IMG/VR virus record: IMGVR_UViG_2526164690_000046
Length of the DNA: 22,540 nucleotides
DNA from: a virus
Taxonomy: Duplodnaviria; Heunggongvirae; Uroviricota; Caudoviricetes
Direction: 5' to 3' (one strand)
Shown: positions 1,553-8,271 of the stretch, one piece after another
Layout of the letters: each line of letters starts with the position of its first letter
Numbering within the stretch: position 1 is the stretch's first letter
Translations under genes and position numbers: made by a program
Notes under the pieces: generated by a model
Told to the model about the DNA's origin: nothing
Databases searched by the model: none
The model's input: only the letters and a program-made list of their open reading frames with translations

Positions 1553-1813
1553 TCACGAGGACTGAAGTTTCTCGCAATTAAAATTTATCAGTTTTACTTT
1601 CTGCTCTCTGGAAACGCCTGCTTCTTTTTTACCTGAGAGCATTTTTTCGCATTCTGATTTCGTTAGTTTAGATTTTGAATATCTTGTCCAGTTAGTAGGA
1701 GTGCCACCTTCCTTTTCAATAGTGGCGGTAATTTTATACATGAACACCTCCATTATTATTTCCAGTGGTTCGTTTATTTCATCGTTCGAGTGCTTCTTTT
1801 TCACTTCCACCAT
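1553..1813 (-). CDS. ydaC: Small Rac-prophage protein (YdaC-like); start codon uncertain
   Basis: 86-aa track ORF between xis and ralR in the conserved Rac order; several in-frame Met codons are possible starts. Confidence 0.5.
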   Translation of the reverse strand: MVEVKKKHSNDEINEPLEIIMEVFMYKITATIEKEGGTPTNWTRYSKSKLTKSECEKMLSGKKEAGVSREQKVKLINFNCEKLQSS

Positions 1814-5836: not shown

Positions 5837-6007
5837 TTAAAGTTCATGTGCCATCTGGTCTTTTTCGGCACAAGCTTCACTGCAATATTTTCTCGGTTCG
5901 TCTTTTGATAAAATCCCGTGCATGAAGTGAAGCATTCTTTCAATAGCTTTGCTTTCTTCAACGTCTTTTTTGCAAAGGTGGTAAGCACATTTTATTTTCT
6001 TAGTCAT
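5837..6007 (-). CDS. ydaE: Small Cys/His-rich protein (YdaE-like, 56 aa)
   Basis: Not in the ORF track (<60 aa); my translation: [56 protein letters not shown]; its ATG overlaps the kilR stop (ATGA), suggesting translational coupling. Confidence 0.65.
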   Translation of the reverse strand: MTKKIKCAYHLCKKDVEESKAIERMLHFMHGILSKDEPRKYCSEACAEKDQMAHEL

Positions 6008-6228
6008 CACCATGACTCCGCCTTTACAGGTAAACCATCACGACCGAGGAAGACTTTAATCATGCGGTCAGTAATGCATGTTTTTGTGGTCAGGTTACGA
6101 ATATATAGTTTTCGCTTTTTAATATTGTTTGCCGAGGCAATATATGTCCGGCCTTCATGAAGAACATAATCGCCAGGAGTCACACACTGACGTGGTATTT
6201 CATCAGTTCCGAAGTGATGTGCAATCAT
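6007..6228 (-). CDS. kilR: KilR-like cell-division inhibitor
   Basis: Internal Met gives 73 aa ([30 protein letters not shown]..); GGAG SD precedes; conserved position next to ydaE. Confidence 0.8.
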
Positions 6229-6648
6229 AATTATCTCCATTTTTACAAATGAACTTTGTTGATGCGGTGCCTGGTGCCTCCAGGTGACTGCAACCAGTTA
6301 ACAATTACAGTCGGCTTTCCCACCCAAACCAATAAGGACTAACATGACTTTTAACTGTGCCGCGTGCGCTTAGCCGCATTCACCGCATCACAAAATTCAC
6401 TTTAAAAAGGGCGGACATCAGTCGAACTTCAAGAAAAAACTGATGCCGCCAAGACTACACACAGCAGTGTTGTTATTCACAACCGGAGGCGCACTCCCAC
6501 CATTTAAATTTAACAGACAAGACCGACTCTTTATGGATACCGGAAATGCGCCTTCGTGTTGTGCCCGGTTTTATTTCACCACCTCCGGGCTTTGGTGGCC
6601 TCGGCTATACCCCTACAGCAAGAATATTGAATTAATCCAATAAATGGT

Positions 6649-6888
6649 TTAGCTGGTATTTTTGGCAAGCCAGCGACGGGCACCATTTTCGGTTTTAAAC
6701 GTTTTGCTTTTGGTATACGTCATTGCGGTGAACGTGCCGTCCTGGTTTGGAAACACGCCGTACACCAGAGATGCGTTGTTGCCAAGATCGATAGTATCCA
6801 TGCTGACCTCATTTCCCCTTAACGCCGGGGTAGCGGAACAAAAACCTGCTGCATAGTTATTAAAGTTGAACCCTGCCGTCATGTTCAT
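6649..6888 (-). CDS. Small prophage protein (possibly YdaF/YdaG-region homolog)
   Basis: 79-aa track ORF on the early-left strand between kilR and the repressor gene; identity from memory only. Confidence 0.45.
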   Translation of the reverse strand: MNMTAGFNFNNYAAGFCSATPALRGNEVSMDTIDLGNNASLVYGVFPNQDGTFTAMTYTKSKTFKTENGARRWLAKNTS

Positions 6889-7089
6889 ACGCCTCGGGCT
6901 GGCTACTTAACCCCTGACCACTGCCGGGTAACTCGAAGTATTGCCCTGCGTTCTGTGGGGCGGGGTGGGTTGGTAGGTATATGATGTACTTTGTGTTCAT
7001 TGATGTAAAGTACTTTAAGTACATTTTGTGTGTAAAAAAATGAGATGGGATAAAGTGAAGCACAAACCCGGAGGGGGACGCTACCGGAT

Positions 7090-7518
7090 TTATGCTGGTT
7101 TAAGAGGCTTTTTGTTTTTCTTTCGTGCTAGCTCTTCGTAAATTGCATTGTACTTCTGTTTTTTCTCCTCAAGAGTTTTTAAAAGTTCATCTGTCTCACT
7201 GTCAGGGAGCTCGTCCAGAAGGTCAATGATGATTTTTTGTCTTGGATTTAACTCCTGATAGAAACGTACCTGTCCACTTTCTTCTGTATCCTCTCCCAAA
7301 AGATAGGTTGGTGTTGTTCCAATGAGTGTTGCTAATTCCCTTAATTTCTCTCGGCGAGGAATTGTTTCGCCATTAAACCATTTGCTAACCGCTTTTGGTG
7401 TTAATTTCATTCGACGGGCAATTTCTGCCTGCCTTCCATGTTGTTCATAACCAGCGTTTTCACAGGCTAGCGCAAGCCTACTGGCGAACTCTTTACGCGC
7501 TTTATCTTCATGAACCAT
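7090..7518 (-). CDS. racR: HTH (XRE/CI-like) prophage repressor, RacR position
   Basis: 142-aa ORF with HTH segment (..QAEIARRMKLTPKAVSKWFNGETIPR..); divergent from the Cro-like ydaS gene across a 79-bp intergenic region. Confidence 0.65.
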   Translation of the reverse strand: MVHEDKARKEFASRLALACENAGYEQHGRQAEIARRMKLTPKAVSKWFNGETIPRREKLRELATLIGTTPTYLLGEDTEESGQVRFYQELNPRQKIIIDLLDELPDSETDELLKTLEEKKQKYNAIYEELARKKNKKPLKPA

Positions 7519-7538
7519 AAGTTCAATGATATTCGCTC

Positions 7539-7573
7539 TTGAATGTACTGTCAGTTCTGTTATAGCATGTACT
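7539..7573 (+). promoter_or_regulatory. Candidate rightward promoter and operators in the racR/ydaS divergent region
   Basis: TTGAAT (7539-7544), 16-bp spacer, TATAGC (7561-7566); two direct ATGTACT copies at 7543-7549 and 7567-7573 flank the -10. Confidence 0.4.
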
Positions 7574-7597
7574 CAAAGTTCACATTGTGAGGGTGAT

Positions 7598-7852
7598 ATG
7601 AACCAGAAAACACTTGAAGATGTAATCAAAACTGTTCGCGTTTCTGTTGTGGCCGACGTTTGTGGTGTCAGCCAAAGAGCAATCTACAAATGGATGGATA
7701 ACGGAAAATTGCCTCGCACAGAATATACCGGCGAAACAAATTACGCTGAAAAAATCGCTCATGCATCAAACGGATTATTTTCTGCTGATGTAATTTTAAC
7801 TATTGGCAGAAATAAAACTACTACGAAAAAGCTGATGGGAGTTGATTCATGA
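7598..7852 (+). CDS. ydaS: Cro/YdaS-like HTH protein
   Basis: ATG at 7598 preceded by GAGGG; HTH-like ..VADVCGVSQRAIYKWMDNGKLP..; divergent from the repressor gene; stop overlaps the ydaT start (ATGA). Confidence 0.65.
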   Translation: MNQKTLEDVIKTVRVSVVADVCGVSQRAIYKWMDNGKLPRTEYTGETNYAEKIAHASNGLFSADVILTIGRNKTTTKKLMGVDS

Positions 7853-8271
7853 AAATCAAGCATGAGCACATCGAGTCAGTGTTGTTAGCCCTGGCAGCCG
7901 AAAAAGGGCAGGCATGGGTAGCCAATGCCATTACTGAAGAATATCTGCGCCAGGGGGGCGGCGAATTGCCCCTGGTACCAGGCAAGGACTGGAATAATCA
8001 GCAGAATATCTATCACCGTTGGTTGAAAGGTGAAACGAAAACGCAAAGAGAAAAAATTCAGAAGCTGATCCCAGCAATTCTGGCAATCCTTCCGCGCGAG
8101 CTGCGTCACCGACTCTGCATCTTCGATACCCTGGAACGCCGTGCATTACTGGCGGCGCAGGAAGCGTTAAGTACGGCAATTGATGCGCATGATGATGCAG
8201 TCCAAGCCGTTTACCGGAAAGCGCATTTCAGCGGCGGCGGGTCTTCCGACGATTCTGTCATTGTTCATTAA
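7849..8271 (+). CDS. ydaT: YdaT-like protein (toxic when derepressed in Rac)
   Basis: 140-aa ORF, same length as recalled YdaT; coupled to ydaS. Confidence 0.7.
   Translation: MKIKHEHIESVLLALAAEKGQAWVANAITEEYLRQGGGELPLVPGKDWNNQQNIYHRWLKGETKTQREKIQKLIPAILAILPRELRHRLCIFDTLERRALLAAQEALSTAIDAHDDAVQAVYRKAHFSGGGSSDDSVIVH

What the first reader, a model, noticed from the sequence alone, without database searches (positions are those of the whole stretch)
6984..7573. Shared ATGTACT-type motif at the racR/ydaS promoter and upstream of the ydaG-like/kilR operon
ATGTACTT (6984-6991), AAGTACTT (7008-7015) and AAGTACAT (7017-7024) lie upstream of the minus-strand kil operon. ATGTACT recurs at 7543-7549 and 7567-7573, flanking the candidate ydaS -10. 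A common operator would put the kil operon under the same repressor as the ydaS-ydaT module.
Basis: seen in the sequence. Interest (0 to 1): 0.45.

Follow-up and report, generated by a model that had tools for sequence, protein, structure and literature searches.

The report
HK022-type operators flanking a prophage repressor
The repeated ATGTACT motifs are half-sites of five 17-bp repressor-binding sites (two at the leftward kil/recET promoter, three at the repressor/cro promoters) of an HK022/933W-type phage immunity cassette sitting in a Rac-like prophage, which is the ordinary lambdoid way of putting both early operons under one repressor.

Summary
The ATGTACT/AAGTACWT words are half-sites of 17-bp pseudo-palindromes, ATGWAC-N5-GTWCAT.

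- **Motif test.** I took the core GWAC-N5-GTWC independently, from annotated 933W-type operators. It occurs exactly five times in the 22.5-kb window (0.83 expected; 0 of 100 shuffles reach 5).
- **Layout.** Two sites, OL1 and OL2, are 24 bp apart on a leftward promoter (TTTACA-17-CATCAT). Three sites, OR3, OR2 and OR1, are spaced 33 and 24 bp over the divergent repressor and cro promoters.
- **Relatives.** HK022, a 933W-like phage, Citrobacter phage Omnitron and phage Tritos show the same 3+2 layout and spacing.
- **Conservation.** Across 11 variants, none of the 40 core positions varies, against 42 of 153 other intergenic positions.
- **Gene identity.** The "racR" and "ydaS" here are not K-12 orthologues. 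The repressor N-terminus is 47% identical to HK022 CI and 51% to 933W CI. The cro-like gene is 62% identical to HK022 Cro.
- **Cassette swap.** An ~870-bp immunity cassette (about 6974-7842) replaced the K-12 one. K-12 carries its own RacR motif at both equivalent places.
- **Repressor tail.** It has no RecA-cleavage site and no peptidase domain.

This is a new member of a well-known kind, so interest is modest. The open point is possible cross-talk with HK022 or Stx-phage repressors.

The parts
6984..7000 (.). OL1: operator ATGTACTTTGTGTTCAT. It lies in the spacer of the leftward promoter and overlaps its -10.
   Evidence: Exact GWAC-N5-GTWC match. Homologous to the promoter-proximal OL site of HK022, ATGAACTTTAAGTACAT on the other strand. 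Core bases are invariant in 11 variants.
7008..7024 (.). OL2: operator AAGTACTTTAAGTACAT, the most symmetric site (14 of 17 positions self-complementary). It abuts and overlaps the -35 of the leftward promoter.
   Evidence: It starts 24 bp after OL1, the same spacing as in HK022, Omnitron and the 933W-like phage.
6981..7009 (-). PL-like promoter of the leftward operon: -35 TTTACA (7009..7004), 17-bp spacer, -10 CATCAT (6986..6981).
   Evidence: One of only two sigma-70-like sites the scan finds in 6300-7900. The hexamers are identical to those at the corresponding place between the HK022 OL sites, read from the sequence. The -35 is invariant across variants.
6649..6888 (-). First gene of the leftward operon (DUF1391/YdaF family). 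It is followed by kilR (6007-6240), ydaE, racC and recE.
   Evidence: Pfam DUF1391, E = 2e-26. RefSeq annotation of the 99.9% identical O26:H11 locus.
7059..7096 (-). Hairpin directly after the repressor stop codon, followed by a U-rich tail. It is probably the terminator that separates the repressor transcript from PL.
   Evidence: Fold energy -19.4 kcal/mol, z = -5.6, 0 of 200 shuffles fold as well. One G-U pair becomes A-U in ETEC1730. The simple terminator scan did not call it.
7090..7518 (-). Repressor, 142 aa (139 aa in every other variant). It has an HK022/933W-type HTH N-terminal domain and a short helical tail, with no S24 peptidase domain.
   Evidence: Pfam HTH_3 only. 47% identical to HK022 CI over 99 aa. 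51% identical to 933W-type CI over 73 aa. Alignment.
7510..7526 (.). OR3: operator ATGAACCATAAGTTCAA, centred on the repressor start codon.
   Evidence: Exact core match. 16 of 17 positions identical to HK022 OR3, TTGAACTTATGGTTCAA on the other strand. The 933W-like OR3 also overlaps the cI ATG.
7526..7554 (-). PRM-like promoter of the repressor gene: -35 CTGACA (7554..7549, inside OR2), 17-bp spacer, -10 TATCAT (7531..7526). The -10 ends 7 nt before the ATG, so the mRNA is probably leaderless.
   Evidence: Promoter scan, 10 of 12 matches. Homologous arrangement in HK022. Leaderless repressor mRNAs are published for K-12 RacR (PMC9638921) and PaaR2 (PMC8630535).
7543..7559 (.). OR2: operator ATGTACTGTCAGTTCTG, in the spacer of the rightward promoter.
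   Evidence: Invariant in 11 variants.
7539..7566 (+). PR-like promoter of the cro-like gene: -35 TTGAAT (7539-7544), 16-bp spacer, TG at 7558-7559, -10 TATAGC (7561-7566).
   Evidence: Read from the sequence. It aligns base for base with TTGACT-16-CATAAT at the same place in HK022. The scan did not call it because the -10 lacks the final T. ETEC1730 has TATATT at this position.
7567..7583 (.). OR1: operator ATGTACTCAAAGTTCAC, covering the expected start point of the rightward transcript.
   Evidence: Core bases are invariant in 11 variants.
7598..7852 (+).
   Evidence: 62% identical to HK022 Cro, E = 2e-34. No significant similarity to K-12 YdaS.
6974..7842 (.). The exchanged immunity cassette: OL/PL, hairpin, repressor, OR, cro.
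   Evidence: Homology to K-12 Rac ends at about 6973 and resumes at about 7843.

Best explanation
The motifs are the left and right operators of a lambdoid immunity cassette of the HK022/933W specificity family.

**Proposed mechanism (inferred).** Dimers of the repressor encoded at 7090-7518 bind 17-bp pseudo-palindromes, ATGWAC-N5-GTWCAT, through a helix-turn-helix whose recognition helix is TPKAVSKWFNGE.
- Binding at OL1 and OL2 covers the -10 and the -35 edge of the leftward promoter. This silences the DUF1391-kilR-ydaE-racC-recE-recT... operon.
- Binding at OR1 and OR2 covers the spacer and start point of the rightward promoter. This silences cro-ydaT-ydaU-ydaV.
- OR2 and OR3 overlap the repressor's own, probably leaderless, promoter and start codon, which would give autoregulation.
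- The Cro homologue most likely uses the same sites.

**Shown here.** The sites, their enrichment, spacing and conservation; homology of proteins, promoters and operators to HK022 and 933W; and exchange of the whole unit as one cassette.

**Inferred, not shown.** Actual binding, the order of site occupancy, cooperativity or looping, and how repression is lifted. The repressor lacks the RecA-dependent self-cleavage domain.
For: 1. The independent 933W-derived core GWAC-N5-GTWC has 5 exact matches, all at these places, against 0.83 expected; 0 of 100 shuffles reach 5.
2. The same 3+2 arrangement, spaced 24/33 bp at OR and 24 bp at OL, occurs in HK022, Omnitron, Tritos, EDL933, ETEC1730 and Shigella flexneri. 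The 933W-like locus has the same layout once its annotated OR2, which is not an exact core match, is counted. K-12 Rac has no match.
3. HK022 and window half-sites are nearly the same, and the PL hexamers are identical.
4. Protein homology: repressor N-terminus and Cro. K42 and K46, published 933W base contacts, are conserved (PMC3317979).
5. 0 of 40 core positions vary among 11 variants, against 5 of 25 N5-spacer positions and 42 of 153 other intergenic positions. Fisher p = 2e-5 and 0.006.
6. Both promoters found by the scan coincide with the sites.
7. Cassette boundaries enclose OL through cro. K-12 has the published RacR motif TAGGC-N3-GCCTA at both equivalent places (PMC9638921).
8. In K-12, loss of RacR derepresses ydaG, ydaF, kilR, ydaE and racC 40-70-fold (PMC6765115; PMC11014345; bioRxiv 10.64898/2026.09.06.749655).
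9. HK022 CI binds cooperatively at OL and OR and loops between them (PMC8053113).
Against: - No binding, footprint or transcript-start data exist for this repressor or this prophage.
- The repressor lacks the C-terminal domain that gives dimerisation and cooperativity in CI proteins. Its tail is only weakly predicted to be helical (pLDDT 52), so the oligomeric state and affinity are unknown.
- The rightward -10, TATAGC, lacks the usually essential final T.
- The OL3 and O_FR sites of HK022 have no counterpart here.
- The conservation statistic treats alignment columns as independent, although the sequences are related.
Confidence: 0.85

Rival explanations
1. The sites are genuine HK022-type operators, but in these cryptic prophages they are mainly occupied by something other than the adjacent short repressor. 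Candidates are the Cro homologue or a full-length CI of a co-resident HK022/933W-type phage. On this view the short repressor is a weak or defective binder.
For: The repressor has lost the CI C-terminal domain. The window copy also carries a frameshifted C-terminus relative to 10 other variants. Four of the five sites satisfy the published 933W CI base requirements at positions 2-6 in both halves (PMC3317979). EDL933 carries this cassette and, by established knowledge, phage 933W.
Against: The short repressor gene is intact and under purifying selection: mostly third-position changes in ETEC1730, with 91% protein identity at 86.5% DNA identity. The same 139-aa repressor is the annotated CI of phage Tritos, a deposited complete phage genome. 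The cassette is present in 1047 of 5426 genomes, most of which need not carry such a helper phage.
Confidence: 0.07
2. The OL sites are an inherited relic. The leftward promoter is dead or read through from the repressor gene, so the shared motif has no present regulatory role for kilR/recET.
For: The prophage is probably defective. No classical terminator was called by the simple scan between the repressor gene and PL.
Against: The OL core positions and the -35 are invariant while the surrounding bases vary. A strong conserved hairpin follows the repressor stop codon. Tritos keeps the same OL/PL. The K-12 equivalent operon is strongly derepressed when RacR is depleted (PMC6765115).
Confidence: 0.05
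3. The recurrence of a short A+T-rich word in two A+T-rich promoter regions is due to chance.
For: The 7-mer count alone is not significant. Generic sharing of 7-mers between the two regions is marginal.
Against: The independent 13-bp motif has 5 matches against 0.83 expected, with 0 of 100 shuffles reaching 5. Spacing is identical in five other phages. The core bases are invariant.
Confidence: 0.01

Closest known systems
Immunity region of coliphage HK022 (CI, Cro, OL, OR, PL, PR, PRM)
   Same: - The repressor N-terminal domain and linker are 47% identical over 99 aa, with a near-identical recognition helix (PKAVSKWFN against PKAISKWFN).
- Cro is 62% identical.
- Operators have the same half-sites, number (3 at OR, 2 adjacent at OL) and spacing (24/33 and 24 bp).
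- The PL hexamers are identical.
- The repressor start codon lies inside OR3.
   Different: - No Ala-Gly cleavage site and no S24 peptidase domain; a tail of about 40 aa takes their place.
- No exact or one-mismatch match that would correspond to HK022's distal OL3 or to O_FR downstream of cro.
- PL drives DUF1391-kilR-recET rather than nun.
- The CII position is filled by YdaT.
- OL to OR is about 500-580 bp, against about 700 bp stated for HK022 (PMC8053113).
Operators of Stx phage 933W (Koudelka laboratory; PMC3317979)
   Same: - The core is G-W-A-C-N5-G-T-W-C, with two sites at OL and three at OR, spaced 24/32 and 24 bp, and OR3 over the cI ATG.
- The DNA-binding domain is 51% identical, with base-contacting K42 and K46 conserved.
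- The window's OL2 core AGTACTTTAAGTACA differs from 933W OR1 CGTACTTTCAGTACG at three positions. Two of them are positions 1 and 1', which the paper reports as nearly irrelevant.
   Different: - The flanking base is T (sometimes A) here and mostly C in 933W.
- The helix starts P-K-A rather than S-K-G, and S41 is a published specificity determinant.
- 933W CI is a full-length cleavable repressor reported not to bind cooperatively.
racR-ydaS-ydaT module of E. coli K-12 Rac
   Same: - Same chromosomal site (ttcA) and same flanking genes on both sides.
- Same logic: a short, non-cleavable repressor, a divergent cro analogue, then YdaT with a YdaT-box at its start codon (PMC11879457).
- Operators at both the rightward and the leftward promoter.
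- One operator lies over the repressor ATG (PMC9638921).
   Different: - The repressor and cro analogue are unrelated in sequence beyond the HTH.
- The K-12 operator is WTAGGC-N3-GCCTAW, and K-12 has no GWAC-N5-GTWC site.
- The cassettes are heterologous between about 6974 and 7842.
PaaR2-YdaS-YdaT region of prophage CP-933P (PMC8630535)
   Same: A lambdoid cryptic prophage whose repressor-type repeats are reported both in the repressor/cro intergenic region and at a downstream PL promoter. It also has a leaderless repressor gene and YdaT in the CII position.
   Different: The repeat sequence is different (GTTTAGTAA type), a toxin-antitoxin pair lies downstream of the repressor, and the repressor family is different.

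Membership tests
HK022/933W-type lambdoid immunity region | Repressor with a homologous HTH DNA-binding domain and recognition helix | tested here: met
   47% identity over 99 aa to HK022 CI (E = 7e-32). 51% over 73 aa to 933W-type CI (E = 2e-25). Helix TPKAVSKWFNGE against TPKAISKWFNGE and SSKGVSKWFNAE.
HK022/933W-type lambdoid immunity region | Operators with core GWAC-N5-GTWC at both OL and OR, adjacent sites 24 bp apart, OR3 over the repressor ATG | tested here: met
   Five exact matches at 6986, 7010, 7512, 7545 and 7569. Same layout in L004, L005 (with its annotated OR2), L009 and L010.
HK022/933W-type lambdoid immunity region | Divergent Cro homologue next to OR | tested here: met
   62% identity to HK022 Cro, E = 2e-34.
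HK022/933W-type lambdoid immunity region | LexA-like C-terminal domain with an Ala-Gly site and Ser/Lys peptidase (RecA-stimulated self-cleavage) | tested here: not met
   Pfam finds only HTH families. The alignment shows the QASAG site and the GDSM...K motifs present in HK022, Omnitron and Kp4864-1 but absent here.
HK022/933W-type lambdoid immunity region | Repressor actually binds the sites and represses PL and PR | not testable with these tools
   Needs EMSA or footprinting and reporter assays. Experimental work is cited for HK022 (Carlson & Little 1993, via PMC8053113) and 933W (PMC3317979).
HK022 proper | Extra operators OL3 (53 bp from OL2) and O_FR (about 300 bp beyond OR) | tested here: not met
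   No exact or one-mismatch core match at the corresponding places. HK022 itself has a sixth match at L010 2165-2177, between cro and cII.
Rac prophage (K-12 type) | Integration next to ttcA with intR-xisR-ralR-recT-recE-racC-ydaE-kilR on the left and ydaT-ydaU-ydaV on the right | tested here: met
   Annotation of the 99.9% identical O26:H11 locus, of EDL933 and of K-12.
Rac prophage (K-12 type) | RacR and YdaS orthologues with WTAGGC-N3-GCCTAW operators | tested here: not met
   The repressors share only 12 of 33 residues in the HTH. Cro against YdaS has E = 0.028. The K-12 motif pattern occurs in L002, and K-12 has none of the window's motif.

The most novel reading that the evidence does not exclude
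The short repressor has no RecA-cleavable domain. It sits in a cryptic Rac-like prophage found in about one fifth of complete E. coli genomes, including O157:H7 EDL933 and O26/O111/O103 EHEC, and it shares operator specificity with HK022 and partly with 933W-type Stx phages.

If cross-binding occurs, two things could follow. The resident cassette could give SOS-insensitive immunity to, or dampen induction of, HK022/933W-type phages. Conversely, Stx-phage CI or Cro could co-regulate the host-toxic kilR and recET genes of the cryptic prophage.

My evidence does not exclude this. Half-sites are the same as in HK022, and four of the five sites meet the published 933W CI base rules. The main point against strong cross-repression is that 933W remains SOS-inducible in EDL933 (established knowledge).
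Probability: 0.2. Interest if true: 0.6.

Novelty: new member of a known kind. Interest (0 to 1): 0.3.

Why it matters
- **Annotation.** This widespread "Rac" variant carries an HK022-type immunity cassette rather than racR/ydaS. Results on K-12 RacR operators therefore cannot be transferred to it.
- **Concrete predictions.** It gives base-level predictions for how the toxic kilR gene and the recET recombination genes are kept silent in EHEC lineages.
- **Repressor design.** It shows a natural CI-type DNA-binding domain joined to a non-cleavable tail.
- **Testable cross-regulation.** It allows a direct test of cross-regulation between a cryptic prophage and Stx phages. There is recent precedent for operator sharing between co-resident prophages (bioRxiv 10.1101/2025.01.01.630987).
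- **K-12 Rac.** The same analysis points to two apparent RacR operators at a near-consensus promoter upstream of ydaG. That would explain the published derepression of that operon.

Tried and rejected
- **7-mer enrichment.** Counting ATGTACT or AWGTACW over the whole window was not or only weakly significant. I replaced it with the independent 13-bp motif.
- **Shared k-mers.** A generic test between the two intergenic regions, against other 201-bp windows, was marginal (k = 7, p about 0.06). It is too blunt for gapped palindromes.
- **Related loci.** The search for related loci in genome contigs with the repressor returned only one locus, in Shigella flexneri. I took diversity from the phage and E. 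coli collections instead.
- **Terminator scan.** It found nothing between the repressor gene and PL. Folding showed a strong hairpin the scan's rules miss.
- **Leftward leader.** Folding 6880-6976 gave no structure better than shuffles (z = +0.5).
- **Rfam.** No family lies in 6200-7700.
- **Extra HK022-like sites.** A search for counterparts of OL3 and O_FR found none.
- **YdaT sites.** I asked whether the motif could be a YdaT (CII-like) site. It cannot: the YdaT-box is a different sequence and lies at 7842-7859.
- **Structure.** Single-sequence AlphaFold2 of the repressor gave pLDDT 52. That is too poor for a fold search, so I used only its secondary-structure hint.
- **K-12 RacR tail.** No similarity to the tail of this repressor.
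- **Literature.** A search for earlier work on the CP-933R repressor found nothing specific.

Full report
**1. The observation**

As a bare 7-mer, ATGTACT is not enriched in the window as a whole: there are 4 matches against 1.65 expected, and 10 of 100 shuffles do as well. All four matches nevertheless fall in the two short intergenic stretches on either side of one gene.

Repeat finding shows that the unit is longer. A 15-nt family ATGTACTnnnnGTTC occurs at 6984, 7543 and 7567, with an inverted copy at 7012-7024. Read as 17-mers, the sites are pseudo-palindromes, ATGWAC-N5-GTWCAT.

**2. The genes around it**

The window is a Rac-type prophage next to ttcA. It is 99.9% identical to E. coli O26:H11 11368 and to O111 and O103 strains.

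| Side | Genes |
|---|---|
| Leftward | DUF1391 gene, kilR, ydaE, racC, recE |
| Rightward | an 84-aa HTH gene, then ydaT, ydaU, ydaV |

Between the two motif clusters lies a 142-aa HTH_3 protein on the minus strand.

- This protein is not K-12 RacR. Only 12 of 33 residues in the helix-turn-helix match.
- Its first 99 residues are 47% identical to HK022 CI.
- Its first 73 residues are 51% identical to the CI of 933W-type Stx phages.
- The 84-aa gene is 62% identical to HK022 Cro and unrelated to K-12 YdaS.
- Phage Tritos encodes a 98.5% identical repressor, annotated as CI.

**3. An independent motif test**

A GenBank record of a 933W-like immunity region annotates OR1-3 and OL1-2. Their sequences give the core GWAC-N5-GTWC, consistent with the published 933W site (PMC3317979).

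I did not derive this motif from the window. It has exactly five matches in 22.5 kb, against 0.83 expected, and 0 of 100 shuffles reach five. One-mismatch matches elsewhere are at background level.

| Site | 17-mer coordinates | Core match starts | Start-to-start distance from previous site |
|---|---|---|---|
| OL1 | 6984-7000 | 6986 | |
| OL2 | 7008-7024 | 7010 | 24 bp |
| OR3 | 7510-7526 | 7512 | 502 bp |
| OR2 | 7543-7559 | 7545 | 33 bp |
| OR1 | 7567-7583 | 7569 | 24 bp |

The same pattern appears in the relatives:

- HK022, Citrobacter phage Omnitron, Tritos, EDL933, ETEC1730 and a Shigella flexneri genome each have three sites spaced 24 and 33 bp next to the repressor start, plus two sites 24 bp apart beyond its end.
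- The 933W-like locus has the same layout once its annotated OR2, which is not an exact core match, is counted.
- Klebsiella phage Kp4864-1 shows the OR trio but no OL pair within the stretch I fetched.
- K-12 Rac has no match at all.

HK022 and window sites are close to identical in their half-sites. HK022 OR3 is TTGAACTTATGGTTCAA and the window's is TTGAACTTATGGTTCAT. HK022 OL reads ATGTACTATTGGTACTT-TACATTA-ATGAACTTTAAGTACAT-CAT. The window reads ATGTACTTAAAGTACTT-TACATCA-ATGAACACAAAGTACAT-CAT.

**4. Promoters**

The consensus scan finds only two sigma-70-like sites in 6300-7900, and both coincide with the operators.

- **Leftward promoter.** TTTACA-17-CATCAT (7009..6981) has the same hexamers as the corresponding place in HK022. 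OL1 lies in its spacer and -10, and OL2 abuts its -35.
- **Repressor promoter.** CTGACA-17-TATCAT (7554..7526) has its -35 inside OR2. Its -10 ends 7 nt before the repressor ATG, which suggests a leaderless mRNA. Leaderless repressor mRNAs are published for K-12 RacR (PMC9638921) and PaaR2 (PMC8630535).
- **Rightward promoter.** TTGAAT-16-TATAGC, with an upstream TG, aligns base for base with HK022 TTGACT-16-CATAAT. Its -10 lacks the final T, so the scan does not call it.
- **Hairpin.** A strong hairpin follows the repressor stop codon (7059-7096; -19.4 kcal/mol, z = -5.6). It would separate the repressor transcript from the leftward promoter.

**5. Conservation**

The cassette occurs in 1047 of 5426 complete E. 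coli genomes. I aligned 11 variants, including one only 86.5% identical and counted variable positions.

| Class of position | Variable / total |
|---|---|
| Core (GWAC and GTWC) | 0 / 40 |
| Central N5 spacers | 5 / 25 |
| Other intergenic | 42 / 153 |

Fisher p is 2e-5 for core against other intergenic positions, and 0.006 for core against the spacers. The columns are not fully independent because the sequences are related, but the contrast within the same sites is clear.

**6. Cassette exchange**

Homology to K-12 Rac runs up to about 6973. It resumes at about 7843, inside the YdaT-box at the ydaT start. The heterologous block therefore contains exactly OL/PL, the hairpin, the repressor, OR and cro.

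K-12's own block carries the published RacR operator WTAGGC-N3-GCCTAW (PMC9638921) in the racR-ydaS region. It also has two copies 25 bp apart between racR and ydaG (L002 4631-4643 and 4656-4668). Those two copies bracket a near-consensus promoter, TTGACA-17-TATAGT, which I read. So two unrelated repressor types each have their own motif at both promoters. That is the expected pattern if the shared motif is the functional link.

In K-12, depletion of RacR raises ydaG, ydaF, kilR, ydaE and racC 40-70-fold (PMC6765115; PMC11014345; bioRxiv 10.64898/2026.09.06.749655).

**7. Mechanism**

The best explanation is the classical lambdoid one. Repressor dimers at OL1 and OL2 block the leftward promoter. 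Dimers at OR1 and OR2 block the rightward promoter. OR2 and OR3 give autoregulation, and the Cro homologue probably uses the same sites.

The 24-bp spacing is that of adjacent sites in HK022. CI of HK022 binds cooperatively and loops between OL and OR (PMC8053113).

What differs here is the repressor's C-terminus. Homology to the full-length relatives stops just before their QASAG cleavage site. A short tail replaces the peptidase domain. A low-confidence model predicts that tail to be helical.

Induction therefore cannot work through RecA-stimulated self-cleavage. Dimerisation and cooperativity must rest on another interface. Neither point can be settled with these tools.

**8. Comparison with what is known, and novelty**

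Functionally this is an HK022/933W-type immunity region placed in a Rac backbone. It meets the family's features for the DNA-binding domain, the Cro homologue and the operator sequence and layout. It fails on the cleavable C-terminal domain and on HK022's extra sites.

Operators shared between PL and PR are textbook. They have been reported for HK022, for 933W and, as repeats, for CP-933P (PMC8630535). I found no paper on this particular cassette. I rate it a new member of a known kind, of modest interest.

**9. The most novel reading not excluded**

Published 933W work shows that positions 2-5 (G, A/T, A, C) are decisive. Position 6 prefers T or C, and position 1 hardly matters (PMC3317979). 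Four of the five window sites satisfy these rules in both halves. OL2 differs from 933W OR1 at only three positions, two of which are position 1.

EDL933 carries this cassette and, by established knowledge, phage 933W. Cross-binding between the short non-cleavable repressor, HK022-type phages and Stx-phage repressors is therefore possible. Operator sharing between co-resident prophages has recent precedent (bioRxiv 10.1101/2025.01.01.630987).

The main point against strong cross-repression is that 933W is readily SOS-inducible in EDL933 (established knowledge). The recognition helices also differ at the position of S41, a published specificity determinant.

Noticed in passing
window 7842-7859: A perfect YdaT-box, TTGATTCATGAAAATCAA, overlaps the ydaT start codon (7849). 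It matches the published CP-933P consensus TTGATT-N6-AATCAA and differs by one base from the K-12 box (PMC11879457). Homology to K-12 Rac resumes inside this box, so it marks the right edge of the exchanged immunity cassette.
   Followed up: partly
L002 (NC_000913.3 1415000-1423000) 4631-4668, i.e. genome 1419630-1419667: K-12 Rac has two RacR-type operators, TAGGTAATGCCTA and TAGGCTATGCCTA, 25 bp apart. They bracket a near-consensus minus-strand promoter, TTGACA-17-TATAGT, upstream of ydaG. The RacR papers I read do not mention them. They would explain the published 40-70-fold derepression of ydaG-ydaF-kilR when RacR is depleted.
   Followed up: partly
window 7059-7096 (minus strand): A strong hairpin overlaps the repressor stop codon and is followed by a U-rich tail (-19.4 kcal/mol, z = -5.6). 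It is a probable terminator of the immunity transcript. The simple terminator scan missed it. One G-U pair becomes A-U in ETEC1730.
   Followed up: partly
window about 7095-7100 (T-run in the repressor 3' end): The window has a 1-nt deletion relative to all 10 other variants. It changes the repressor C-terminus from ...KKQKAS (139 aa) to ...KKNKKPLKPA (142 aa). This is either a sequencing error or a strain-specific frameshift of the last residues.
   Followed up: no
window 7090-7518 (repressor), residues about 95-142: Homology to full-length HK022-type CI proteins ends just before their QASAG self-cleavage site. A short tail, weakly predicted to be helical, replaces the peptidase domain. This amounts to a natural non-inducible CI-type repressor. 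PHROG 5736 (133 aa) covers most of its length.
   Followed up: partly
window 6241-6648: A stretch of about 400 bp without an annotated gene lies between kilR and the DUF1391 gene. sieB is absent here but present in EDL933 and K-12. K-12 annotates the small RNA KilS in the equivalent stretch. Rfam has no match here.
   Followed up: no
window 1557-1735, 14156-14331, 17952-18142, 18144-18205 (minus strand), 21521-21597, 21619-21706: Rfam matches above the gathering score: RalA antitoxin RNA, sok, STnc100, AgvB (anti-GcvB), isrK and C4 antisense RNA. They show that the window spans further prophage small-RNA loci.
   Followed up: no
L010 (HK022) 2165-2177: A sixth exact core match lies between cro and cII of HK022. 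This fits the published extra operator about 300 bp beyond OR (O_FR, cited in PMC8053113). The window has no counterpart.
   Followed up: partly
window 6649-6888: The 79-aa ORF joins a short upstream reading frame (MNMTAGF...), which is a separate 20-codon ORF in K-12, to the DUF1391 domain. RefSeq annotates only the 50-aa C-terminal part in the O26 genome.
   Followed up: no
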